Positions 35,871 through 55,593 of a DNA stretch of 64,000 nt are shown here, piece after piece. Source of the stretch: Candidatus Thalassospirochaeta sargassi. GTDB lineage: Bacteria; Spirochaetota; Spirochaetia; UBA9216. The notes under the pieces are model-generated. The model worked only from the letters and a program-made list of their open reading frames with translations, had not been told where the DNA came from and made no database searches. Both the position numbers and the translations under genes were made by a program. Positions within the stretch are counted from its first letter, which is position 1. Each line of letters starts with the position of its first letter. The stretch is from contig JAQQAL010000002.1 in assembly GCA_028532855.1 (NCBI GenBank), positions 5,901-69,900 of the forward strand, read 5' to 3'.

Positions 35871-36563
35871 ATGAAGATTCAAATGAGAAGATTTCTGATC
35901 CTGACGGTTGTTGTATCCGTTTCTATAGGATTTGCAGGATGCGCGCCCCGTACAGCAGATAAGGTCTCCGAGGCTGCCGGAAGCGATACCACCAGTGCTG
36001 CTTCAGCGAAAAATGACTACTCAGCCTATGAGGGAGTGTCCGAATTTGCAGAGATGAACGGCATTTTCGGAAGATTGACAGCCCGACAGTTTTCTAATGA
36101 ATCGGTATCCGAAGAGCAGATCGATATGCTGCTGAATGCCGCCTTTGCTTCCCCCACGGGTGGAAACCAGAGATCCTGCGAGCTCATGGTAGTTACTGAC
36201 AGAAGTATGATGAAGAAGATGCAGGAGGGGCATCCTTATTCCCAGCCGCTGGACACGGCTCCGCTGGTTATTGTGATTGGAGTAAATGAAGAGACTGCGA
36301 AGTATCCTGAAATCCTGACTCTGGATGCAGGTATTGCCGCCATGGCCATTATGGTTCAGGCCGCTGAAATGGGTCTGGTTTCGGTTCCAATGAGCATCAT
36401 GCCCCAGGCTGAGCGTATCCAGGGAATCGCAAATGCGATCGGTCATCCTGGAAATGTAGCCGGCCAGATAATGGTTGCCGTAGGGCACAGCGCCGTGGAC
36501 GGTGATACCCATGCAAGCACCGATTACTTTAATGAGGAACAGGTGCATGTAAACGGCTGGTGA
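35871..36563 (+). CDS. Nitroreductase-family flavoprotein with an N-terminal lipoprotein signal.
   Basis: 'ILTVVVSVSIGFAGCAP' lipobox, then a nitroreductase core 'AAFASPTGGNQRSCELMVV'. Confidence 0.7.
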   Translation: MKIQMRRFLILTVVVSVSIGFAGCAPRTADKVSEAAGSDTTSAASAKNDYSAYEGVSEFAEMNGIFGRLTARQFSNESVSEEQIDMLLNAAFASPTGGNQRSCELMVVTDRSMMKKMQEGHPYSQPLDTAPLVIVIGVNEETAKYPEILTLDAGIAAMAIMVQAAEMGLVSVPMSIMPQAERIQGIANAIGHPGNVAGQIMVAVGHSAVDGDTHASTDYFNEEQVHVNGW

Positions 36564-36853
36564 GAACTCTTAAAAAGCAGATCTCAGCTTCAGTTTCCTT
36601 CGGGAGACTGAAGCTGTGGGATAGACAAATACACAGGAGTGAGATTCCGGATATCATCAATAATAGAAGAAGCATTAGAAAATATTCGGAGAAGCCCCTC
36701 TGTAATGATCTTATTCTGAAGCTGACAAAAGCAGCAATGCAGGCCCCTTCAGCCGGCAACCAGCAGCAGGATATGTCTGCAGCAGCAGCGAAATTTCTTC
36801 TGGAAGCAGTTCGGTTGAGTGTTTCTCCAGTGAAAGAGCTGAAAGTTTTATGA
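36560..36853 (+). CDS. Nitroreductase-like N-terminal fragment, possibly truncated.
   Basis: 'NNRRSIRKYSEKPL...AAMQAPSAGNQQQ' matches the nitroreductase N-terminus, but the ORF ends after 97 aa without the rest of the fold. Confidence 0.35.
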   Translation: MRTLKKQISASVSFGRLKLWDRQIHRSEIPDIINNRRSIRKYSEKPLCNDLILKLTKAAMQAPSAGNQQQDMSAAAAKFLLEAVRLSVSPVKELKVL

Positions 36854-41716: not shown

Positions 41717-44700
41717 TCAGATGATTGTTTCTTCCCTCCACATTGATTCATCCGGTGTTGTTCCGCTGAGCAGTTTGTCTTTAAGTATAACGGTCTTTTC
41801 GTCGGCGGTTACCTTGTAATAAGCCTGCAGTTTTTGATTGAGCTTATCGAACAGCCTGGGGATTTCACTTCTATTGCCGACAGCCGAGCTTGAAACCATC
41901 AGCATGCGGTATGCGGGTTCACAAAGCGGGTCGGCATCAATGAGCTGTTTGGCCCATTCAAGAGCCTCATGGAATTCAGCCGAATTCAACGATAGAAGTA
42001 TCATTTTAAAGAGCAGGCTGCGAAATTTCGAACGAAGATTTTCCCGCTCATCACGGATGAAATCATAGTACAGATCATTTTCAAGAAAATCCCCTCTATA
42101 AAGTTCTATTGCAGAGCGGAACATCCTTGTTGATACCTCATGGTTGCCGTTTTTCTCCGCATCCGTTCCCAGCTTTATATATTCAAGAAATTTATCAGCA
42201 TCGGTTATTACTGTATTTTCCTTGAATCTGATTACGTTTACATCAGTGTAGAGAAAATCATCCTTATTATTCAGCAGCTTGCGCAGGCGGTAGATTATGG
42301 TGTTAAGGTTATCCCTTGCGCTTTTATATGAGTAGCGTGGCCAGAAAAGCTCATATATTCGCTCTTTGGTGATTCCTGTTTTTCTGTATACTATAAGCAG
42401 TTTCAGCAGATCCATCACACGCTTCTGTCCTCCAAGGAGATCTGCTGAGATCTCCTCCCCTTTAACACCGATGCTGAATGAACCCAGAGTGGTGATTTCA
42501 AGTTCATACTGTGAGGTAGAAAGTTTCTCATATTCTTTATCATGTTTGAGTCTTGGGAATGATTCGAAAGCTCCGCAAGGGAATACCTCAGCTATTTCAC
42601 GCAGAAGGTCCGGAGAACAGATGTCGAGGTTTGTATAATTATTTTCAGTAATAGCGTTTTCCATTCTTTTAAACCATTTTTTTGCCTCGGCTTTAGCTCC
42701 GCTTTTAGTACTGATATAAGCCAGAAGGGCTGTTGCGGTAGCATATGGGTAAGGGTATTCTTCAGCTGTGATTTCCTCCATAAGTTCCATAAGGATAATT
42801 CTGCTTTTTTCGGCACCCTCGGTGTAGAAGCTGACTTCTGCCAGTGCCAGTTTGCTGAATGGGAAGTCTGAACGCATCAGTTTTTCATTGCCGGGCTCCA
42901 GTAGTCTGTTGCAGTAATACCTGGCTCTGTGGTTGTTTCCTGTTCGATAAGCTATCAGCATCTCAAAGAGAAAATCGTAATTGTATTTCAGGTAAAGATT
43001 TTCTCCGGGTTCTCTCTCCCTCAAACGTTCATATAGGGCATCTGCTTTCTCTATATCATTCAGATAGAGATTGTAATAAACCAGGTTTAGTTCCAGATAA
43101 GGTCTGAATGCGAACTCAGTTCCGGAGGATGATAGAGCCTTGTGTATCTGTGAAATGGCTGTTGAGATTTCGCCGCAGTAGAAATATGTATCACCTAGGT
43201 AGAAGCTGGACAGACTCTGATACTGTTTGTATAAGTGGAATGAGCCTTCGGTAAAGAGGTTTTCTGTTTTTAAAAGCAGGTTTTTAGCGCTGTGGAATTC
43301 ACCGCGGGCGATATAAATTTTTGATAAAACGAGACGGGAGCAGAGAAAAGCTTCTTCGTTATGAAGTCTGTTTGATGTTTCTTCGGCTCTCAGGGCTATC
43401 TCAAATGCCTTGTCTCTCGATGCGCCGGTCCACCATTGCCCAAGCGGAATCAAAGCGGTCAGCAGTTCATTCTGCTCAATAGAGATATCAAGCCCGTGGT
43501 TAAGCAGGAATTCTTCAGCCATATTGATAATATTCCCAACGGTTTCTGCGTTACTCTGAAAGAAAAAGTAATTTGTAAGCAGGACTGAATAAATTGAAGC
43601 TTCCCGGTCATGATCTTTGTTGCTGTTAAAGATGTACAGGAGTTTGAGCAGTTGGCGCCGGGACGTTTCCGGCTGCATCAGATTGTTGACTATTGCATTG
43701 TAATAAGACAGATAAGGATCCGAGGCCTGCATCTCTGCAGGGAAGAATGAAAGAATATCATTAATGGATTCATACTCATTGTTTTTTATAAGATCTTCGG
43801 CGAAGTTGATTAATTCTACCCTTGCTTCATCAAACAACTCTGCTTTGCAGAGGAATTTTACTGCCGATCTAATATCCTCTTCCTGCTGGTAGTATTCGGC
43901 AATGCCTGAGAGGCATTCCTTTTTCTGTTCGGGAGTAAACTTGTTAAATTCGCTACTCAGGTAGGAGCGGAAAATCGGATTGAAAATATATTCGTATTTT
44001 GCCGGATCTACAGTCGAAATAAACATGTTGGTACGCTGAAGCTCTTTAATCGTCTGAACTCCGCTGTCTCCGGAGACTACCTCAATCAGGTGGGGGGTAA
44101 AGTTGTCCGCCTCGCTTAGTTTTATAAGGATATCAGCCATAGCAGGAGTTAGTATTGGAAGAATCTGAGTCTGGAAGTAGTCGTCAATTTCCGGAATTGA
44201 TTGAGTTACTAAAAAATTTTCAAGGATGTGTTCTCCTTCCTTCCGATTCAGGCAGCAGATCTTTTCCAGCAGTATGATTATGGCGGTTATCCATCCCTGT
44301 GTGACCTCTATAAGTCTTTCAAGAATGACGGTATCGAAACTCATGTCATAAAGGTTGTAAATCAGGCTGTGGATATCGTCACGGTTAAACGCTATATCTC
44401 TGTTTTTCAGCTCTGTAAGCTCTTTTCTTGTTCTTATCCGGGCCAGAGAAATTTTTACGGTTTCCCGTGTAAGTATTATCAAATGAATTCGTTTAGACAG
44501 ATGTTCAAGCAGTCTTTCAATCACTGTACAGGTTTCAGGGGAATGATTTATATACTCAAAATCCTCAAAAATCAGGTACATATCATCAGGGAGTTTACCT
44601 TTTATTTCTTCACAGAAGTTATCGGCAAGTTCAGCCGGAGATATTGATTCCGATAGGGGCTTTTTCCTTTGTTGCCCATTGTTCAGATAGGAATATAAAA

Positions 44701-44932
44701 CCTTTTCAAGGCGTTCAAGAAAGATTCTGAAATTTGAGTCTTTTTTCTGGAGCCGGTGCCAGACACAATTTTTGTCCTCATTGGTAATGAAGTCGAATGC
44801 TGCCGCTGATTTACCCATGCCGGGGCCTGCTTCAATTATGACAACATGTTTCTCTTCAAAAAAATTATAGAGTCTTGGCCTCGGCTGAACCTTGTTCAGT
44901 TCAGGCGGCAGGAATTCCTTTGAATAGGGCAT
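41717..44932 (-). CDS. STAND-class signal-transduction ATPase: MalT-like N-terminal NTPase, TPR/SUPR repeats, and a C-terminal OmpR-type wHTH plus BTAD (SARP-type) DNA-binding output.
   Basis: P-loop 'GPGMGKSAAAFDF' in a MalT-like N-region ('VTQGWITAIIILL'). C-terminal 'LGSFSIGVKGEEI...RIYELFWP...YRLRKLL' is a trans_reg_C wHTH, followed by BTAD 'AIELYRGDFL...'. 1071 aa. Confidence 0.7.
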   Translation of the reverse strand: MPYSKEFLPPELNKVQPRPRLYNFFEEKHVVIIEAGPGMGKSAAAFDFITNEDKNCVWHRLQKKDSNFRIFLERLEKVLYSYLNNGQQRKKPLSESISPAELADNFCEEIKGKLPDDMYLIFEDFEYINHSPETCTVIERLLEHLSKRIHLIILTRETVKISLARIRTRKELTELKNRDIAFNRDDIHSLIYNLYDMSFDTVILERLIEVTQGWITAIIILLEKICCLNRKEGEHILENFLVTQSIPEIDDYFQTQILPILTPAMADILIKLSEADNFTPHLIEVVSGDSGVQTIKELQRTNMFISTVDPAKYEYIFNPIFRSYLSSEFNKFTPEQKKECLSGIAEYYQQEEDIRSAVKFLCKAELFDEARVELINFAEDLIKNNEYESINDILSFFPAEMQASDPYLSYYNAIVNNLMQPETSRRQLLKLLYIFNSNKDHDREASIYSVLLTNYFFFQSNAETVGNIINMAEEFLLNHGLDISIEQNELLTALIPLGQWWTGASRDKAFEIALRAEETSNRLHNEEAFLCSRLVLSKIYIARGEFHSAKNLLLKTENLFTEGSFHLYKQYQSLSSFYLGDTYFYCGEISTAISQIHKALSSSGTEFAFRPYLELNLVYYNLYLNDIEKADALYERLREREPGENLYLKYNYDFLFEMLIAYRTGNNHRARYYCNRLLEPGNEKLMRSDFPFSKLALAEVSFYTEGAEKSRIILMELMEEITAEEYPYPYATATALLAYISTKSGAKAEAKKWFKRMENAITENNYTNLDICSPDLLREIAEVFPCGAFESFPRLKHDKEYEKLSTSQYELEITTLGSFSIGVKGEEISADLLGGQKRVMDLLKLLIVYRKTGITKERIYELFWPRYSYKSARDNLNTIIYRLRKLLNNKDDFLYTDVNVIRFKENTVITDADKFLEYIKLGTDAEKNGNHEVSTRMFRSAIELYRGDFLENDLYYDFIRDERENLRSKFRSLLFKMILLSLNSAEFHEALEWAKQLIDADPLCEPAYRMLMVSSSAVGNRSEIPRLFDKLNQKLQAYYKVTADEKTVILKDKLLSGTTPDESMWREETII

Positions 44933-45066
44933 AAAATCTCCAGAATTTGTATGAAAAAGAATTCATAACAGGGGTTTGTCATCTCACGTTCAGACCCGTG
45001 ACACTACATTATTGTATAAAAAGGTACAAAACTCAACATATTAATTTCATTAGAGAGGTATATAAA

Positions 45067-46368
45067 ATGAAAAGCGGACCTAAGAGCAAAGCTATGTACG
45101 ACAGGGCTGCGCAGTCTATTCCCGGAGGAGTTTCCTCTAATTTCCGTTTCTGGGGTGAAGATGCCACCCTTGTAGTAAAAAAAGGTGAAGGTGCATATCT
45201 TTACGATCAGGATGATAAGCGATATGTAGACTACAGACTCGGGTTCGGCCCTGTTGTTCTTGGACATGCCAGAGAGGAAATTTCTAATCATATAACAGAA
45301 GCAATGAAGATGGGAAACTGTTTCGCTATGACGAATGAGTATGAAATCAGAGTTGCTGAAAAGATTAAGAAAATGACAGGTGTCGATCTTGTAAGAATGT
45401 CCAATACGGGAACTGAGGCTACAATGGGTGCAATGAGAATTGCCAGGGCATTCACCGGAAGAGATAAGATCCTGAAGTTCGACGGTGCATATCATGGATT
45501 TCATGACTACTCGCTGTGGAATACATATCCTCCCACTACAGGGGTAGGTTACAAGAATTCCCCCTTTCTTATTCCCCAGGGTTCAGGTATTCCCAGATCC
45601 GTAGGTGATTTAATGTACTCACTTCCATTTAATAATAAGGAAGTCCTTGAGAAAAAGCTGAAAGAGCGATGGCAGGATATTGCATGTATTATTATTGAAC
45701 CGCTATTAGGTAATCAAGCCTCAATTATGCCGCAGGACGGATTCCTTGAATTTGTTCGAGAGCAGTGTGATAAATACGGAATCGTGATGATTATTGATGA
45801 GGTAAAAACAGGATTCAGAATTGCACCGGGCGGTGCACAGGAGTATTTCGGAGTTAAAGCCGATATTGTTACCTATGCAAAATGTCTGGGCAACGGGTTT
45901 CCGGTCGCTGCAATAGGCGGTCAGAAACATATAATGGGTGAAGTCGGCCCCGGTAAGATTCCGCATGGTGGAACTTACGGTTCGAATGTCGTTGCTATGG
46001 CAGCTGCGGATAAGGTTCTTGATCTTATTGCCGCCGGTGAGCTTGATAAGGTTAATGCTCACGGTAAAAAACTGAGAGCGGGATGGAAGAAAATACTTGA
46101 TGCTGCCGGAGTTCCATACGTAATTCAGGGACCCGATGCAATGCCTGGAATCGTATTTACCGAAGAGCCGGTGTGCCGTGAGTACAAGCACTGGGCGGAC
46201 GGTGATCATGACACCTACAATGCTATAATTCATAAATGTATAGAAAAAGGTGTTATGCCTGACTACGATTCAAGAGAACCCTGGTTTATCTCTTCATGTC
46301 ACACTGATGAAGATGCTGATTTCGTACTCGGTGTTTTTGAGGAAGCAGTCAAAGAAGTTCTTAGCTAG
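45067..46368 (+). CDS. Class-III aminotransferase, glutamate-1-semialdehyde aminomutase (HemL)-like.
   Basis: 'AAQSIPGGVSSNFRFW' and 'MSNTGTEATMGAMRIARAFTGRDKILKFDGAYHG' fit the HemL-family pattern. ATG at 45067 with a purine-rich 'gagagg' upstream. Confidence 0.75.
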   Translation: MKSGPKSKAMYDRAAQSIPGGVSSNFRFWGEDATLVVKKGEGAYLYDQDDKRYVDYRLGFGPVVLGHAREEISNHITEAMKMGNCFAMTNEYEIRVAEKIKKMTGVDLVRMSNTGTEATMGAMRIARAFTGRDKILKFDGAYHGFHDYSLWNTYPPTTGVGYKNSPFLIPQGSGIPRSVGDLMYSLPFNNKEVLEKKLKERWQDIACIIIEPLLGNQASIMPQDGFLEFVREQCDKYGIVMIIDEVKTGFRIAPGGAQEYFGVKADIVTYAKCLGNGFPVAAIGGQKHIMGEVGPGKIPHGGTYGSNVVAMAAADKVLDLIAAGELDKVNAHGKKLRAGWKKILDAAGVPYVIQGPDAMPGIVFTEEPVCREYKHWADGDHDTYNAIIHKCIEKGVMPDYDSREPWFISSCHTDEDADFVLGVFEEAVKEVLS

Positions 46369-46370
46369 GC

Positions 46371-46410
46371 AAAAAACCGCCGTGTGTTTCGCCGGCGGTT
46401 TTCTTTTTTC
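46371..46410 (+). terminator. Bidirectional rho-independent terminator.
   Basis: A-run, then ACCGCCG-loop-CGGCGGT, then 'tttcttttttcc'. Confidence 0.6.
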
Positions 46411-46598
46411 CCCATTTTAATAACCGGATAAACACTCCTCCGACAGGGGTAGCCAGCTGGCTTTTGTAAAAAAGCTTGCATAATTAAAAATGCAGATTTA
46501 AACTGATTAAGTAGATTCCATTCTATCAGCAGGCTGTCATAATTATATCAGAGTTGTGATAGACATTAAAAATAGAATGGACATGCAATCTATAAAAT

Positions 46599-48122
46599 AT
46601 GGAGGAGAAGAGATTGGAAAATGCAGTAGTTCAATTACACGTGGTTGACTGGCTGATCGTCCTGATTTACATCGCTTTTATGCTTTTCGTGGGATTTTAT
46701 TTCTCAAAGAAGCAGAAAGGTTTTGACGATTACTTCATGGCCGGCCGCACATTGACTGCACCGCTTCTGGTGGGAACACTTGTATCAACGTTCTATGGGC
46801 TTGATACCCTGTTTGGGACCTCGGAAGTCGGTTTTTACGAAGGTGTATCCGCCTTTTTTGCATATTCGCTGCCATATACAGCGCTGTATGTAATAATGGC
46901 ATTCCTTGCACCCAAGTTTAAGGAGGTGTTTCCTGAAGGCACAACAATGCAGGACATCGCGTTCAAGAAGTACGGTAAAACAACTGGGATATTTACTTCA
47001 ATAGCGGCTTTCCTGTATTCAACGAATACGATGGAAATGATGGGTATAGGATTTATCTTGAACCTTATTACCGGAATGCCTATATGGCTCGGTACTCTAA
47101 TAGGTGCAATACTTGTACTTATCTACACCTGGACCGGCGGATTGTGGGCAGTCACAATGACCGACTTCATACAGTTTATATCGATGATGATAACCGTCGG
47201 TATTGCTTTGATTATCGGCTGGAAGGCTATTGGCGGATATGAAGGAGTATTCGAAGGTCTGATTGAATGGACAGGCAGCGCGGAGGATGCCTCATACTTC
47301 TTCAGTGCGGGGGCGGGATATCTGAGTCCCTGGACGCTTGTATCCTACGGAATAACTGCTCTGGCAGTTCTTGCCGAACCCGCTTTTTTTCAGCGGGTAT
47401 TCGCATCAGCAGGGCCAAAGGAAATTCAGAAGGCTTTCGGTGCCGGTGTTCCGATGTGGCTGTCATACGACTGGTGTGTCACCTTCCTGGGTATTCTCGG
47501 CGCGGCAGCAATAGGCCTTGGTATTATTCCCGAGGTTGAGGCTAATCAAGCCTTGTTTGCTATCTGCGGTCAGTATCTACCCATTGGTCTTATGGGTGTC
47601 TTCCTTGCCGGTGTACTTGCTGCTGCAATGTCTACCGCAGATTCATATTTCCTTGTTTCGGGTGGTGTCATCGGTTATGACATCTACAAAGGTGTAATCA
47701 ATCCCGATGCTACATCGGAACAGGTTGAGAGAATGACTAAGCTTGGAATGCTCATTTCCGCAGTTTTCGCCATTGCTCTAACCTTCACCTTTGATGCAAT
47801 TATGGAAGTTTGGGTATTTCAGGCAACAGTTATACTTTCTGTAGCCCTTGTTCCGGTTTATTTTGGAGCTTTCAGCAAGAAACCGCCGAAAAAGATTGCC
47901 GGTGTACTTTCAACCGGTGTTGGTCTTGCCTGTTCAATTATATGGTATATCTGGTCTAACTTCTTCGGTACATGGAGTGACGACTGGGAAGTATATCTAG
48001 TAAAGATTGGAAAAGTGGAACTATGGCAGGAACACGGTATTCTTATTATCGTGCCGCTTGTAATCGTTATCTATCTGATTGCAAACGCCCTCGGTAAGGA
48101 ATCTCTTGAGGAGGCTGTATAA
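46599..48122 (+). CDS. Sodium:solute symporter family transporter.
   Basis: 507 aa with 13-14 TM helices and an SSS N-terminal pattern. The exact start is ambiguous (ATG 46599 or downstream GTG). Confidence 0.85.
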   Translation: MEEKRLENAVVQLHVVDWLIVLIYIAFMLFVGFYFSKKQKGFDDYFMAGRTLTAPLLVGTLVSTFYGLDTLFGTSEVGFYEGVSAFFAYSLPYTALYVIMAFLAPKFKEVFPEGTTMQDIAFKKYGKTTGIFTSIAAFLYSTNTMEMMGIGFILNLITGMPIWLGTLIGAILVLIYTWTGGLWAVTMTDFIQFISMMITVGIALIIGWKAIGGYEGVFEGLIEWTGSAEDASYFFSAGAGYLSPWTLVSYGITALAVLAEPAFFQRVFASAGPKEIQKAFGAGVPMWLSYDWCVTFLGILGAAAIGLGIIPEVEANQALFAICGQYLPIGLMGVFLAGVLAAAMSTADSYFLVSGGVIGYDIYKGVINPDATSEQVERMTKLGMLISAVFAIALTFTFDAIMEVWVFQATVILSVALVPVYFGAFSKKPPKKIAGVLSTGVGLACSIIWYIWSNFFGTWSDDWEVYLVKIGKVELWQEHGILIIVPLVIVIYLIANALGKESLEEAV

Positions 48123-48244
48123 TGGGTTGGAATGTAATGTGTTACATAATGGGCGCAATTTCAATAATAGGGCCTATCTGTCTGATTTTCTGGTATGTGC
48201 AGGGTGCAAAAGCGCAGCTGTCTAATTTGAAAAAAGATAAATAA
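48122..48244 (+). CDS. Small (40-aa) membrane protein translationally coupled to the SSS transporter. Not in the ORF track.
   Basis: TAATG overlap with the SSS stop. Translation is 'MGWNVMCYIMGAISIIGPICLIFWYVQGAKAQLSNLKKDK', one TM helix. Small subunits often accompany SSS transporters. Confidence 0.4.
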   Translation: MGWNVMCYIMGAISIIGPICLIFWYVQGAKAQLSNLKKDK

Positions 48245-48419
48245 AAAATTTACTCCCGGATCACCTGATTCGGGAGTCTTAAGCCGGTACTGTCGTCCGG
48301 CAGGACTGGCTTAACTGCTCAAACTGATATTTTCTGCTTGAGCCGCAAATACCTTTTAATAAATAATACAGACAATTGCGTCTGAAACGGCCGTTAGGTT
48401 TAATTGAGGTGAGAAATAA

Positions 48420-49643
48420 ATGAAAAAGGTAATAGTAGTTGGTGTAGGTGCTCAAGGAAGCACTATTGCCAAAAGACTTGATGAAGAAACCAATGTTTCT
48501 GAAGTGATTTGTGCTGACTATGATGAAAAGGCTGCTGACAATGTGGCCGGTCAGTTAAAGAAGGCTAAGGCTGTACAGCTGAATGCAAAGAATGTAAATG
48601 AGATTGTTGAGGCTGCTCAGGGCTGTGACCTGATTGTAAATGGACTGGCTCCTGATTTCAATATGAATGTAATGGACGCTGCGCTTGAAGTAGGAGCATG
48701 CTATCAGGATCTTGCATCAGGCCCGGTCAGTGATCTTGATTTTGTCTCTGCTGTGAAAAGATGTCTGGACAGAGCTCCGGAATTTGAGGCGAAGGGGCTT
48801 ACTGCTCTTATTAACACAGGATCCGCCCCCGGTATGGCAAACGTTCTTACAAGACACGGGGTTGAGAAACTCGATTCCTGCGACAGAATCGATATTTTTG
48901 TCTACGATGAGATATGGTCGAAGAAATTTATCCCGTTCTGGTGGTCCCCTGAGACGGCCTTCGGTGATATGGCTGCCCAACCTATCGTTTACAAGGATGG
49001 TGAATTCAAGAGAGTTCAGCCTTTCAACAATCCGCAGATGACGGAGTTTAAAGGTATGTCTGAACCTAAACGAATGACGGATCATGAACATGAAGAACCA
49101 GTGACAATGGGTCTTCTGTCGAACAAGGTTCTGAAGGGAGTGAAGGAAGTAAACTTCCGCTATGGCGGGCCTGGTCTTGAACTTGCTGAATCACTCTACA
49201 GGATGGGATTACTCTCTGAAGAAAAGCTCGAAGTAAAAGGCCAGGAGATTGTCCCGATGGATATCATCTCCAGGCTTACTCCGCCTGCTCCGAAGTATGC
49301 TGATGAAATTAAAGCAGTACTTGAGGAGGGTATGGTCTCTGAAGACGGGGTATTCCTTGTAAGGGTAAGCGGTAAGAAAGACGGTAGAAAAAGCAAGATT
49401 GATCTCTACTGTTACGCACCGGGGCTTACAGAGTCTTTTGAAAAAGCTGGAATTACCCATGAATCATATTTCACCGGTCAGGCAGCATTTCTATTTACGA
49501 AGATGTTTGTAAACGATGTTATTACTACGAGGGGTTGCTTTCCTCCTGAATGTCTTGAGGATGATGAGCGGGGTTATTACCTGAGTGAAGCTGCGAAGCT
49601 TGATATTTTAGTAGATGAGATAGTTGAAACAAGACTGTACTAG
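48420..49643 (+). CDS. Saccharopine dehydrogenase-family NAD(P) oxidoreductase.
   Basis: 'KVIVVGVGAQGSTIAKRL' Rossmann N-terminus with the saccharopine-DH fold length of 407 aa. Confidence 0.7.
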   Translation: MKKVIVVGVGAQGSTIAKRLDEETNVSEVICADYDEKAADNVAGQLKKAKAVQLNAKNVNEIVEAAQGCDLIVNGLAPDFNMNVMDAALEVGACYQDLASGPVSDLDFVSAVKRCLDRAPEFEAKGLTALINTGSAPGMANVLTRHGVEKLDSCDRIDIFVYDEIWSKKFIPFWWSPETAFGDMAAQPIVYKDGEFKRVQPFNNPQMTEFKGMSEPKRMTDHEHEEPVTMGLLSNKVLKGVKEVNFRYGGPGLELAESLYRMGLLSEEKLEVKGQEIVPMDIISRLTPPAPKYADEIKAVLEEGMVSEDGVFLVRVSGKKDGRKSKIDLYCYAPGLTESFEKAGITHESYFTGQAAFLFTKMFVNDVITTRGCFPPECLEDDERGYYLSEAAKLDILVDEIVETRLY

Positions 49644-54939: not shown

Positions 54940-55376
54940 GCCTTAACCCCCTTTCGTTCTCTCAGCGATATAACGCCTTTGGGGCACCATTCTATACACT
55001 GGGGGTCACCTCCGCAGAGATCGCATATTGTAGATTTATCGTTATTCAAAAAAATTATCCTGGTAGGACAGTTATCAACACATGTCCCGCAGCCTATGCA
55101 TTTATCCTCATCGACAATCATCCAGCGGCCGTTGTTTGTGATTGCACCTACTGGACATACCTTCTCGCATTTTTTGCATAGAATACAGCTTTTTGATGCA
55201 ATTCTGATGCCGTCGTCGTTGTACTCGTGAATCATCTTCAGTCTTGCTTTTTCGGGGTTGAAAACCTGATAGTGACTTGCTGAACAAGCCAGCTGACATA
55301 GCTTGCAGCCTGTACATTTTGATAGATCAAATTTTAATGGCATAATTCCTCCATTGTAATTTTTCCTCCTTTTCAA
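54936..55376 (-). CDS. 4x[4Fe-4S] polyferredoxin, AOR electron-transfer partner.
   Basis: Four CxxCxxCxxxCP-type clusters in 146 aa. Overlaps the AOR start by 4 nt. Confidence 0.85.
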   Translation of the reverse strand: MKRRKNYNGGIMPLKFDLSKCTGCKLCQLACSASHYQVFNPEKARLKMIHEYNDDGIRIASKSCILCKKCEKVCPVGAITNNGRWMIVDEDKCIGCGTCVDNCPTRIIFLNNDKSTICDLCGGDPQCIEWCPKGVISLRERKGVKA

Positions 55377-55593
55377 GACTGGAAGGCAACATCGTTTCCA
55401 ATTTTACCCTGAGGCCGGCATCCATAGTAATTTATGCTCTGATAAAACTTTAGGTCTGTTCGGCTCGGAGATTGTTTCATTATAATTCATCTATAGAGCA
55501 ATGCAATTCAATATTCATTGATTCAGTCATATATCACTGTGAAGTCAGAATGAAACTATAGATTTGTGGTAGATATCATTATAAGGTATAATT

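What the first reader, a model, noticed from the sequence alone, without database searches (positions are those of the whole stretch)
41717..44932. MalT-like STAND ATPase with a C-terminal SARP-type (wHTH + BTAD) output, inverted relative to AfsR/SARP regulators
The 1071-aa protein starts directly with a MalT-type NTPase (P-loop GPGMGKS, 'VTQGWITAI' arm), then about 450 aa of TPR/SUPR repeats. It ends with an OmpR-type winged helix and a bacterial transcriptional activation domain. Classical SARP/AfsR proteins have the DNA-binding+BTAD at the N-terminus. MalT has a LuxR HTH at the C-terminus. This one combines MalT topology with a SARP DNA-binding module. It is transcribed divergently from the HemL-like aminotransferase / SSS transporter / small membrane protein / saccharopine-DH-like cluster and is the obvious candidate ATP- and ligand-dependent activator of that module.
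Basis: partly seen in the sequence, partly recalled or inferred. Interest (0 to 1): 0.6.

Follow-up and report, generated by a model that had tools for sequence, protein, structure and literature searches.

The report
MalT-type ATPase regulator with SARP output
A spirochaete gene encodes a large ATP-driven switch protein built like the E. coli maltose activator MalT. It ends in the DNA-binding and activation module of Streptomyces antibiotic regulators, and probably turns on a neighbouring amine uptake and breakdown gene set through phased repeats at two promoters.

Summary
ORF 41717-44932 (-) encodes a 1071-aa protein with three parts:
- an N-terminal MalT-clade STAND ATPase (family profile vs MalT 8bob, E=2e-55);
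- about 470 aa of helical repeats;
- a C-terminal OmpR-type winged helix plus BTAD (Pfam BTAD 52.9 bits; TM 0.80 to the AfsR SARP domain).

There is no LuxR HTH.

Linkage to the divergent aminotransferase cluster holds in all 10 distinct orthologues of 60% identity or more. It also holds in at least 7 relatives of 38-45% identity where other synteny is lost. Other paralogues sit next to different amine or aldehyde genes.

New here: two promoters carry four T-R-W-Y-A-N hexamers in 11-bp register, ending 10 bp before a -10 box, with no -35. One is upstream of the aminotransferase gene (44966-45004) and one is upstream of the symporter gene (46524-46562). They are the only two matches to the composite pattern in 64 kb and the two best sites in a simple score scan. 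This layout resembles SARP operators.

The architecture is not unique. End-to-end homologues occur in other lineages, and JGI already labels some of them "MalT/DNA-binding SARP". I found no characterised member, and reviews state that SARPs are actinobacteria-only and N-terminal. Verdict: a new variant of a known kind, of moderate interest.

The parts
41717..44932 (-). Regulator gene, 1071 aa (NOD - arm/TPR sensor - wHTH - BTAD)
43943..44911 (-). MalT-clade STAND NOD (about residues 8-330: NBD, helical domain with GW motif, winged-helix domain). The MalT match itself extends to residue 415, into the arm.
   Evidence: NCBIfam MalT E=1e-42; 8bob E=2e-55 with the family profile; precomputed WHD_MalT PF25873
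44807..44827 (-). Walker A / P-loop GPGMGKS (residues 36-42). G38, G40 and K41 are invariant in 28 relatives.
42518..43942 (-). Arm plus helical-repeat (TPR/SUPR-like) putative sensor, about residues 331-805
   Evidence: TPR_MalT/TPR hits; all-helical in the model
42218..42517 (-). OmpR-type winged-helix DNA-binding domain, about residues 806-905; the most conserved stretch of the family
   Evidence: Trans_reg_C 24 bits here and hit in 21/28 members; aligned to the AfsR/EmbR DNA-binding domains; invariant columns
41771..42205 (-). BTAD (bacterial transcriptional activation domain), residues 910-1054
   Evidence: Pfam 52.9 bits vs cut-off 22.1; 28/28 members
44966..45004 (+). Predicted operator 1: four hexamers in 11-bp register (TAACAG 44966, TGTCAT 44977, GTTCAG 44988, TGACAC 44999), covering the position where a -35 box would lie
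   Evidence: Phylogenetic footprint in 15 loci; lag-11/22 peaks; composite pattern and score scan
45013..45020 (+). Predicted extended -10 (TGTATAAA) of the aminotransferase promoter, 10 bp after the last hexamer
   Evidence: Invariant in orthologues; inference, no mapped transcription start
45008..45036 (-). Consensus-scan promoter for the regulator itself (TTGAGT-17-AATAAT), back to back with the aminotransferase -10
   Evidence: weak evidence, consensus match only
45067..46368 (+). HemL-like class-III aminotransferase, 433 aa, first target gene
   Evidence: Aminotran_3; GntE model 521.8 vs 525 bits, hemL 370.8 vs 527.3 bits
46371..46409 (+). Terminator-like GC hairpin plus T-run directly after the aminotransferase gene
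   Evidence: read from the sequence
46524..46562 (+). Predicted operator 2: TATCAG 46524, TGTCAT 46535, TATCAG 46546, TGATAG 46557, then 10 bp, then -10 TAGAAT at 46573-46578
46599..48244 (+). SSS-family symporter (507 aa) and overlapping conserved 40-aa membrane ORF (48122-48244)
48420..49643 (+). Saccharopine-dehydrogenase-like NAD(P) oxidoreductase, 407 aa

Best explanation
This is a MalT-topology STAND transcription activator in which a SARP module (OmpR-type winged helix plus BTAD) has replaced the usual C-terminal LuxR-type HTH. Proposed mechanism, by analogy with MalT, GutR and AfsR: the protein rests as an autoinhibited monomer. A small-molecule inducer, probably the amine substrate of the adjacent pathway or one of its intermediates, binds the helical-repeat sensor. 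ATP binding by the NOD then drives oligomerisation. The oligomer places several C-terminal SARP modules on one face of the DNA, on four hexamers (T-R-W-Y-A-N) spaced 11 bp apart and ending 10 bp upstream of the -10 box. There they substitute for the missing -35 contact and recruit RNA polymerase. Two promoters in the window carry this array. One serves the HemL-like aminotransferase gene. The other, after a terminator, serves the symporter, the 40-aa protein and probably the saccharopine-dehydrogenase-like gene. Shown here: the domain composition, the MalT-clade identity of the NOD, conservation of the Walker A motif, the conserved gene linkage, and the existence, conservation and uniqueness of the two repeat arrays. 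Inferred: DNA binding to those arrays, activation rather than repression, ATP and inducer dependence, the identity of the inducer, and the promoter elements.
For: Architecture. Walker A G38/G40/K41 are invariant; the Walker B position is E123-D124 here and DD in the family consensus. Linkage: 10 of 10 distinct orthologues (60-80% identity) and L012, L017, L020/21, L022, L024 and L032 (38-45% identity) are divergent from the aminotransferase gene. This holds even where DUF4954 and the other flanks are absent, or where the symporter gene is missing (L006, L009). Operator: a conserved footprint of four hexamers in 11-bp register plus a 10-bp gap plus a -10 box is seen in 15 loci. Self-similarity peaks at lags 11 and 22 (0.38 and 0.44, against 0.18-0.31 at the other lags; 0 of 2000 shuffles reach the lag-11 value). 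A composite pattern derived only from the aminotransferase promoters of orthologues finds exactly one further site in the 64-kb window, at 46524, correctly placed upstream of the symporter gene, with 0 matches expected by chance. In a scan using a simple consensus score over both strands, these are the two top-scoring sites (24/24 and 22/24). The second array is conserved in orthologues, with lag-11 0.47. The layout resembles the published SARP rule: direct repeats at 11- or 22-bp spacing, the 3' repeat 8 bp from the -10, overlapping a poor -35 (PMC10936776). It also resembles the PimR operators (PMC5930380). The winged-helix region is the most conserved part of the family, which fits a conserved DNA target.
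Against: There are no experimental data. The transcription starts and -10 boxes are predicted, and in the distant loci I chose the -10 anchors by eye. The hexamer core TRWYA is self-complementary, so direct and inverted orientation of the units cannot be told apart. The loci are related, so the shuffle statistics overstate significance. The gap to the -10 is 10 bp, not the canonical 8 bp. Some relatives (L022, L033) have the cluster nearby but no recognisable array. Other paralogues are not linked to this cluster. The substrate of the pathway is unknown, so the inducer is a guess. Another transcription factor could bind the arrays.
Confidence: 0.7

Rival explanations
1. The protein is a transcription factor of this architecture, but it acts mainly as a repressor or dual regulator. 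The arrays lie between the divergent genes and could serve mainly for autoregulation of the regulator gene rather than activation of the metabolic genes.
For: Operator 1 lies in the shared 134-bp divergent region and overlaps a consensus-scan promoter for the regulator gene. Sites that overlap core promoter elements can repress.
Against: Both target promoters lack a -35 match and have a conserved (extended) -10, as expected for activator-dependent promoters. Operator 2 has no divergent gene. BTAD/SARP and MalT-type regulators are activators in every characterised case cited (PMC10936776, PMC10972967).
Confidence: 0.12
2. The adjacency reflects inherited synteny only. The regulator controls genes elsewhere (a global role like AfsR), and the hexamer arrays belong to a different DNA-binding protein.
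For: Among the orthologues of 60% identity or more, the wider neighbourhood (DUF4954, NTP transferase, DUF2147) is also conserved. Paralogues sit in other contexts. No binding data exist.
Against: The pair survives loss of all other synteny at 38-45% identity and an ABC/TetR insertion on the other side of the regulator in L001. No other regulator gene lies in the cluster. The arrays occur only at the two cluster promoters in 64 kb. Similar high-scoring arrays lie next to paralogues in unrelated contexts, for example L014 5918-5956 in its own divergent intergenic region, which is suggestive only.
Confidence: 0.1
3. It is an anti-phage STAND (Avs-like) protein or another non-transcriptional NTPase, and the C-terminal region is only more TPR repeats.
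For: Foldseek also lists Avs3/Avs4 and other STAND+TPR proteins (E about 1e-8). BTAD is itself TPR-like.
Against: There are no PADLOC hits. The C-terminal 260 residues match the complete wHTH+BTAD of AfsR and EmbR by profile and by fold. Trans_reg_C is hit in 21/28 members. The gene has a conserved metabolic neighbourhood, not a defence island.
Confidence: 0.02

Closest known systems
MalT (E. coli) and LAL-family regulators
   Same: N-terminal STAND NOD of the same clade (8bob, E=2e-55 with the profile), then an arm and a helical-repeat sensor, with the DNA-binding output at the C-terminus. Like MalT, it controls uptake and catabolism genes and is expected to need inducer plus ATP and to bind arrays of repeated sites as a multimer.
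   Different: The output is an OmpR-type winged helix plus BTAD instead of a LuxR/GerE HTH (no GerE hit). Only about 19-25% identity to MalT-like proteins. It scores far below the MalT equivalog cut-off (146 vs 537 bits).
AfsR and 'large SARPs' (Streptomyces)
   Same: The same three kinds of module: SARP wHTH+BTAD, STAND ATPase and TPR. The SARP module superposes on AfsR with TM 0.80. The predicted operator has 11-bp phasing next to the -10 and overlaps the -35 position, like the afs box (PMC10936776).
   Different: The order is reversed (SARP last, not first). The NOD is MalT-clade, not NB-ARC; the profile matches AfsR chains only through the SARP part. The predicted operator has four units rather than two. 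The host is a spirochaete, and the targets are transport and amine-metabolism genes rather than secondary metabolism.
SARP-LAL regulators (PimR, FilR, SanG, PolR)
   Same: They combine a SARP module with a LAL/MalT-like ATP-binding half and lack a LuxR HTH. They bind three heptamers with 4-bp spacers, i.e. 11-bp units (PMC5930380).
   Different: In these proteins the SARP is N-terminal. They are found in actinomycetes and in antibiotic gene clusters. The PimR main operator does not overlap the -35.
GutR (Bacillus subtilis)
   Same: A STAND plus TPR activator of a catabolic operon, switched on by substrate and then ATP (cited in PMC10936776).
   Different: N-terminal HTH, an NB-ARC-type NOD, and no BTAD.
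EmbR (Mycobacterium tuberculosis)
   Same: A wHTH+BTAD module (2fez/2ff4 matched by profile and by fold).
   Different: The module is N-terminal and is followed by an FHA domain. It is regulated by phosphorylation and has no ATPase.

Membership tests
STAND NTPase, MalT clade | P-loop NBD with Walker A and Walker B, followed by a helical domain and a winged-helix domain, with significant similarity to the MalT NOD | tested here: met
   NCBIfam MalT E=1e-42 over residues 8-415. 8bob E=2.3e-55 with the family profile. G38/G40/K41 invariant; the family consensus has DD at the Walker B position. Precomputed WHD_MalT hit.
MalT / LAL family (as named regulators) | C-terminal LuxR/GerE-type HTH DNA-binding domain | tested here: not met
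   No GerE hit at E<=1 in this protein and none among the 25 families listed for the 28 relatives. The C-terminus is wHTH+BTAD.
MalT / LAL family (as named regulators) | Score at or above the MalT equivalog cut-off | tested here: not met
   146.1 bits vs cut-off 537.
MalT / LAL family (as named regulators) | Inducer- and ATP-dependent multimerisation and cooperative binding to repeated boxes | not testable with these tools
   Only the repeat arrays are seen.
SARP (wHTH + BTAD module) | OmpR-type winged-helix DNA-binding domain | tested here: met
   Trans_reg_C scores 24.0 vs 26.2 bits in this protein (sub-threshold) but is hit in 21/28 relatives. The profile alignment covers the DNA-binding domains of AfsR and EmbR. 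Fold TM 0.80 to the AfsR SARP.
SARP (wHTH + BTAD module) | BTAD immediately after the winged helix | tested here: met
   PF03704 52.9 bits vs 22.1, residues 910-1054; 28/28 relatives.
SARP (as classified in the literature) | SARP domain at the N-terminus (small, medium, large and SARP-LAL classes) | tested here: not met
   The module occupies residues about 806-1071 of 1071. Classes as defined in PMC10972967.
SARP (as classified in the literature) | Found in actinobacteria and controlling secondary metabolism | tested here: not met
   The identical protein is deposited from a Spirochaetales MAG, and all close relatives come from Spirochaetota MAGs. The neighbours are transport and amine-metabolism genes.
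SARP (as classified in the literature) | Operator of direct repeats at 11- or 22-bp spacing, with the 3' repeat about 8 bp from the -10, overlapping a weak -35 | tested here: inconclusive
   Arrays with 11-bp phasing are found at two promoters. However, the gap is 10 bp, the unit core is palindromic, the promoter elements are predicted, and binding is untested.
Large SARP / AfsR-like | NB-ARC-type NOD | tested here: not met
   No NB-ARC hit. The profile matches full-length AfsR chains only via the SARP region.
Anti-phage STAND (Avs and similar) | Match to known defence-system models | tested here: not met
   0 PADLOC families.

The most novel reading that the evidence does not exclude
The protein may belong to a widespread, uncharacterised class of non-actinobacterial STAND regulators with a C-terminal SARP output. 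The class is seen in Spirochaetota and 'Deltaproteobacteria'/Syntrophaceae MAGs, and also as NOD-less forms of about 725 aa. In this reading an ATP-driven oligomer lays four SARP modules on four helically phased sites and replaces the sigma region 4 / -35 contact. That would mean the 'sigma adaptation' mechanism described for AfsR operates outside Actinobacteria and in the control of amine catabolism.
Probability: 0.35. Interest if true: 0.6.

Novelty: new variant of a known kind. Interest (0 to 1): 0.45.

Why it matters
Reviews state that SARPs occur exclusively in actinobacteria and always carry the SARP domain at the N-terminus (PMC10972967, PMC7040171). This locus, and the many C-terminal SARP modules found in the protein library, show that the wHTH+BTAD activation module is a portable output. 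MalT-type switches use it in other phyla for ordinary catabolic control.

The locus offers a compact test system:
- one regulator;
- two predicted operators with a simple phased-hexamer grammar;
- a small target gene set.

With it one could ask whether SARP-type replacement of the -35 contact works with non-actinobacterial RNA polymerase, and how a STAND oligomer arranges C-terminal DNA-binding modules.

It is also a candidate sensor and promoter pair for an as yet unknown amine. The practical weight is limited because both halves are well understood and the combination is already named in automatic annotation.

Tried and rejected
- **First operator pattern.** WCAGRNNNNTGWYAY matched only the two half-sites it was derived from, with about 1 match expected by chance, so it was uninformative. 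I replaced it with the four-hexamer composite pattern and a consensus-score scan.
- **Repeat finder.** The repeat finder on the intergenic region reported only an irrelevant TTGTATRAAAA pair. The phased hexamers are too degenerate for seed-based detection.
- **Inverted-repeat reading.** I considered TGTCA...TGACA as an inverted repeat. This cannot be excluded, because the core TRWYA is its own reverse complement. I therefore report phased units without claiming an orientation.
- **Third array.** I looked upstream of the saccharopine-dehydrogenase-like gene (48245-48419). There are only hairpins there and no array.
- **Riboswitches.** An Rfam scan for leader RNAs in the cluster found none. The only hit in the window is a Moco riboswitch far away.
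- **Defence role.** No PADLOC hit.
- **Literature.** Searches for a described MalT-NOD plus C-terminal SARP protein found nothing. This is a limited open-access library, so absence is not proof.
- **Pathway substrate.** The aminotransferase is HemL-like and scores just under the GntE equivalog cut-off. The dehydrogenase is only distantly related to saccharopine and carboxyspermidine dehydrogenases. No substrate could be assigned.
- **Relatives without an array.** L022 and L033 have the cluster nearby but no recognisable array; L022 has two palindromes instead.
Full report

Yes. The ORF 41717-44932 on the minus strand encodes 1071 aa starting at an ATG. It contains GPGMGKS at residues 36-42 and VTQGWITAI at residues 210-218.

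N-terminal part:
- NCBIfam's MalT model matches residues 8-415 at E=1.1e-42, although far below the equivalog cut-off (146 vs 537 bits).
- The solved MalT NOD (8bob) is the only PDB sequence hit for the single protein (E=1.6e-13).
- It is by far the best hit for a profile of 28 full-length relatives (E=2.3e-55, positions 12-408).

C-terminal part:
- Pfam BTAD covers residues 910-1054 at 52.9 bits (cut-off 22.1).
- Trans_reg_C covers residues 837-890 at 24.0 bits, just under its cut-off of 26.2.
- Across the 28 relatives, BTAD is hit in 28 and Trans_reg_C in 21.
- No GerE/LuxR model matches this protein at E<=1, and GerE is not among the 25 families listed for the 28 relatives.
- The family profile aligns positions 802-1062 to the whole wHTH+BTAD of AfsR (8hvr_I, E=4.6e-6) and EmbR (2fez, E=2.2e-5).

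An AlphaFold2 model built on the 28-sequence alignment has mean pLDDT 87.7. It shows a Rossmann-like N-terminus, an all-helical repeat region from about residue 334 to 805, and then a β-strand and helix winged-helix unit followed by a helical domain. Foldseek against the PDB ranks MalT 8bob first. It superposes the C-terminal 260 residues on the AfsR SARP chains with target-normalised TM 0.79-0.80 and rmsd 3.6-3.7 Å. There is no PADLOC (defence) hit.

**2. What organism, and how common is the protein?**

The identical protein is deposited as [quoted passage not shown]. Seventeen clusters of 60-100% identity exist. Species-representative genomes that carry it are all Spirochaetota MAGs.

I searched the C-terminal 267 aa against 1.84 billion cluster representatives. 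This returned 19,629 hits at E<=1e-3. Among the best 150:

| Class | Count |
|---|---|
| Proteins of 950 aa or more with the module at the C-terminus | 30 |
| Shorter proteins with a C-terminal module after at least 100 aa of something else | 62 |
| Classical large SARPs with the module at the N-terminus | 20 |
| Small SARP-like proteins or fragments | 26 |
| Other | 12 |

Three proteins of about 1100 aa from outside the close family have an N-terminal P-loop, TPR_MalT-like repeats and a C-terminal BTAD. They or their cluster mates come from "Deltaproteobacteria"/Syntrophaceae MAGs, and JGI names some of them [quoted passage not shown]. One of them (P0099, 1124 aa) aligns with the window protein from residue 10 to residue 1054 at 23% identity, E=4e-58. 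The architecture is therefore old and shared by descent. It is not a local accident.

A set of proteins of about 725 aa aligns to residues 367-1071 only. These are sensor plus SARP without the ATPase.

**3. Is it linked to the neighbouring cluster?**

The divergent neighbour is a 433-aa class-III aminotransferase (45067-46368). It is HemL-like but below the hemL cut-off, and it scores 521.8 bits against a 525-bit cut-off for GntE, the guanitoxin pathway transaminase.

It is followed by:
- an SSS-family symporter gene (46599-48122);
- an overlapping conserved 40-aa ORF (48122-48244);
- a saccharopine-dehydrogenase-like gene (48420-49643), only distantly related to solved saccharopine and carboxyspermidine dehydrogenases.

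All ten distinct orthologous loci (60-80% regulator identity) keep the regulator divergent from the aminotransferase gene, with an intergenic region of 125-182 bp. Because wider synteny is also kept there, the informative cases are others:
- L001 has an ABC/TetR insertion on the other side of the regulator, and the pair is intact.
- L006 and L009 have lost the symporter gene, and the pair is intact.
- In relatives of 38-45% identity the other flanks differ. L012, L017, L020/L021, L022, L024 and L032 still have the aminotransferase gene divergent and adjacent. L026 and L033 have cluster genes nearby.

Other family members (36-41% identity) lie next to different genes:
- molybdopterin oxidoreductase, with a second class-III aminotransferase, an MttB-family methyltransferase and an ABC transporter (L014);
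- dimethylamine methyltransferase plus a corrinoid protein (L027);
- flavin amine oxidase plus another saccharopine-dehydrogenase-like gene (L023);
- aldehyde:ferredoxin oxidoreductase (L028);
- a class-V aminotransferase (L019);
- a PfkB kinase (L013).

The family thus looks like a set of paralogous local regulators, most often found beside amine or aldehyde metabolism genes.

**4. A predicted operator**

I aligned the divergent intergenic regions. Conserved blocks alternate with variable spacers. Anchored on the -10 box, all 15 loci examined show four hexamers whose starts are 11 bp apart. A 10-bp gap and a -10 hexamer follow, with nothing resembling TTGACA at the -35 position.

In the window the hexamers are TAACAG (44966), TGTCAT (44977), GTTCAG (44988) and TGACAC (44999). 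They are followed by TACATTATTG and then TATAAA (45015-45020), which forms an extended -10, TGTATAAA. The unit consensus is T-R-W-Y-A-N.

Self-similarity of the 44-nt region peaks at lag 11 (0.38) and lag 22 (0.44), against 0.18-0.31 for all other lags from 3 to 23. None of 2000 shuffles reaches the lag-11 value. The loci are related, so that number overstates significance. The comparison between lags does not suffer from this problem.

The strongest test was unplanned. Reading the 230-bp gap after the aminotransferase gene, I found a GC hairpin with a T-run (46371-46409). After it comes TATCAG-N5-TGTCAT-N5-TATCAG-N5-TGATAG, then 10 bp, then TAGAAT (46524-46578), just upstream of the symporter gene.

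A composite pattern written from the orthologous aminotransferase promoters only (TRWYAG N5 TGTYAT N7 TYAG N5 TGAYA) has exactly two matches in the 64-kb window on both strands, even with one mismatch allowed. They are these two sites. Zero matches occurred in 100 shuffles.

A simple score (four TRWYAB hexamers at 11-bp spacing, maximum 24) ranks the symporter site first (24) and the aminotransferase site next (22) among all positions of the window. The second array is conserved in the orthologues that have the symporter gene, in the same register relative to the -10 in six of seven. Its lag-11 value is 0.47.

The geometry resembles the published description of SARP operators: direct repeats separated by 11 or 22 bp, the 3' repeat 8 bp from the -10, overlapping a poor -35 (PMC10936776). 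It also resembles the three heptamers with 4-bp spacers bound by the SARP-LAL regulator PimR (PMC5930380).

Caveats:
- The gap is 10 bp, not 8 bp.
- The five-base core TRWYA is self-complementary, so unit orientation is undetermined.
- The -10 boxes and transcription starts are predictions.
- In the distant loci I chose the anchors by eye.
- No binding data exist.

**5. How it most likely works**

The composition and order are those of MalT: NOD, arm, helical-repeat sensor, C-terminal DNA-binding output. [quoted passage not shown] The AfsR SARP domains sit side by side on 11-bp repeats and take over the -35/σ region 4 contact (PMC10936776).

I therefore propose the following sequence:
- inducer binding to the sensor;
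- ATP-dependent oligomerisation through the NOD;
- cooperative occupation of four phased sites by the C-terminal SARP modules;
- activation of two -35-less promoters that drive uptake (symporter plus 40-aa subunit), transamination and an NAD(P)-dependent step acting on an unidentified amine.

The Walker A residues are invariant and the Walker B position is conserved across 28 relatives, which argues for a working ATPase. The winged helix is the most conserved part of the protein, which fits the conserved hexamer. Everything after "domain composition, linkage and repeat arrays" is inference.

**6. Comparison with known systems, and novelty**

It works like MalT but is not a MalT/LAL family member in the strict sense, because it has no LuxR HTH and scores far below the equivalog cut-off. 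It carries a genuine SARP module but fails the literature definition of SARP classes, which are N-terminal, actinobacterial and concerned with secondary metabolism (PMC10972967, PMC7040171). It is not an inverted AfsR, because its NOD is of a different clade. The closest in composition are the SARP-LAL proteins such as PimR, which have the SARP at the other end.

My literature searches found no described protein with this layout. Automatic annotation has already named it.

I rate it a new variant of a known kind with moderate interest (0.45). The claim of unusualness needs tempering. The new result of this second look is the testable pair of operators.

Noticed in passing
window 55350-55482 (-): Molybdenum/tungsten cofactor (Moco) riboswitch, 65.2 bits vs gathering score 36. 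It is the only Rfam hit in the window.
   Followed up: no
window 45067-46368; L017, L024: The aminotransferase is far more conserved than its regulator. In L017 it is 90.5% identical vs 45% for the regulator; in L024, 84.7% vs 39%. It also scores 521.8 bits on the GntE (guanitoxin transaminase) equivalog model, whose cut-off is 525. This suggests either a fast-evolving or exchanged regulator, or horizontal movement of the enzyme genes. The GntE score points to an aldehyde/amine transaminase rather than HemL.
   Followed up: partly
window 45021-45045 and 46579-46598: Both predicted promoters share a conserved block just downstream of the -10...ACAAAACTCAACATATTA... and ...ACA(A/T)(A/G)CAATCTATAAAA.... 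At the aminotransferase promoter this could be the -35 of the divergent regulator promoter. The symporter promoter has no divergent gene, so the block may be a shared leader element or a second protein's site.
   Followed up: partly
P0081-P0083, P0085, P0087, P0090, P0091 (about 710-745 aa): A group of relatives aligns only to residues 367-1071 of the window protein: helical-repeat sensor plus wHTH+BTAD with no ATPase domain. They look like a NOD-less version of the same regulator.
   Followed up: partly
window 48122-48244 (+): A 40-aa hydrophobic ORF overlaps the symporter stop codon. It is conserved at 78-87% identity in orthologues and 40-55% in distant loci and matches no NCBIfam model. 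It is probably a small accessory subunit of the symporter.
   Followed up: partly
L014 5918-5956; L034 11394-11432; L024 5834-5872; L026 9564-9602 and 12268-12306: High-scoring four-hexamer arrays (23-24 of 24) lie in intergenic regions next to paralogous regulators in unrelated gene contexts. One example is between the molybdopterin oxidoreductase gene and the regulator in L014. I did not assess these statistically, and the AT-rich consensus may inflate the scores.
   Followed up: partly
L022 5736-6000 (reverse strand): This relative (39% identity) is divergent from the aminotransferase gene. Instead of phased hexamers it carries two perfect palindromes, TGTATCGATACA and TTCTCAACTTGAGAA.
   Followed up: no
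window 35871-36853 (+): Two overlapping ORFs in different frames (230 aa and 97 aa) both hit the Nitroreductase family. This could be a frameshifted gene, an assembly error or two adjacent genes.
   Followed up: no
P0020, P0032 (1208 aa): Distant hits carry BTAD, MalT-type WHD/TPR and GerE domains together. They are presumably SARP-LAL-like proteins that keep a LuxR HTH, giving two DNA-binding modules in one STAND protein.
   Followed up: no
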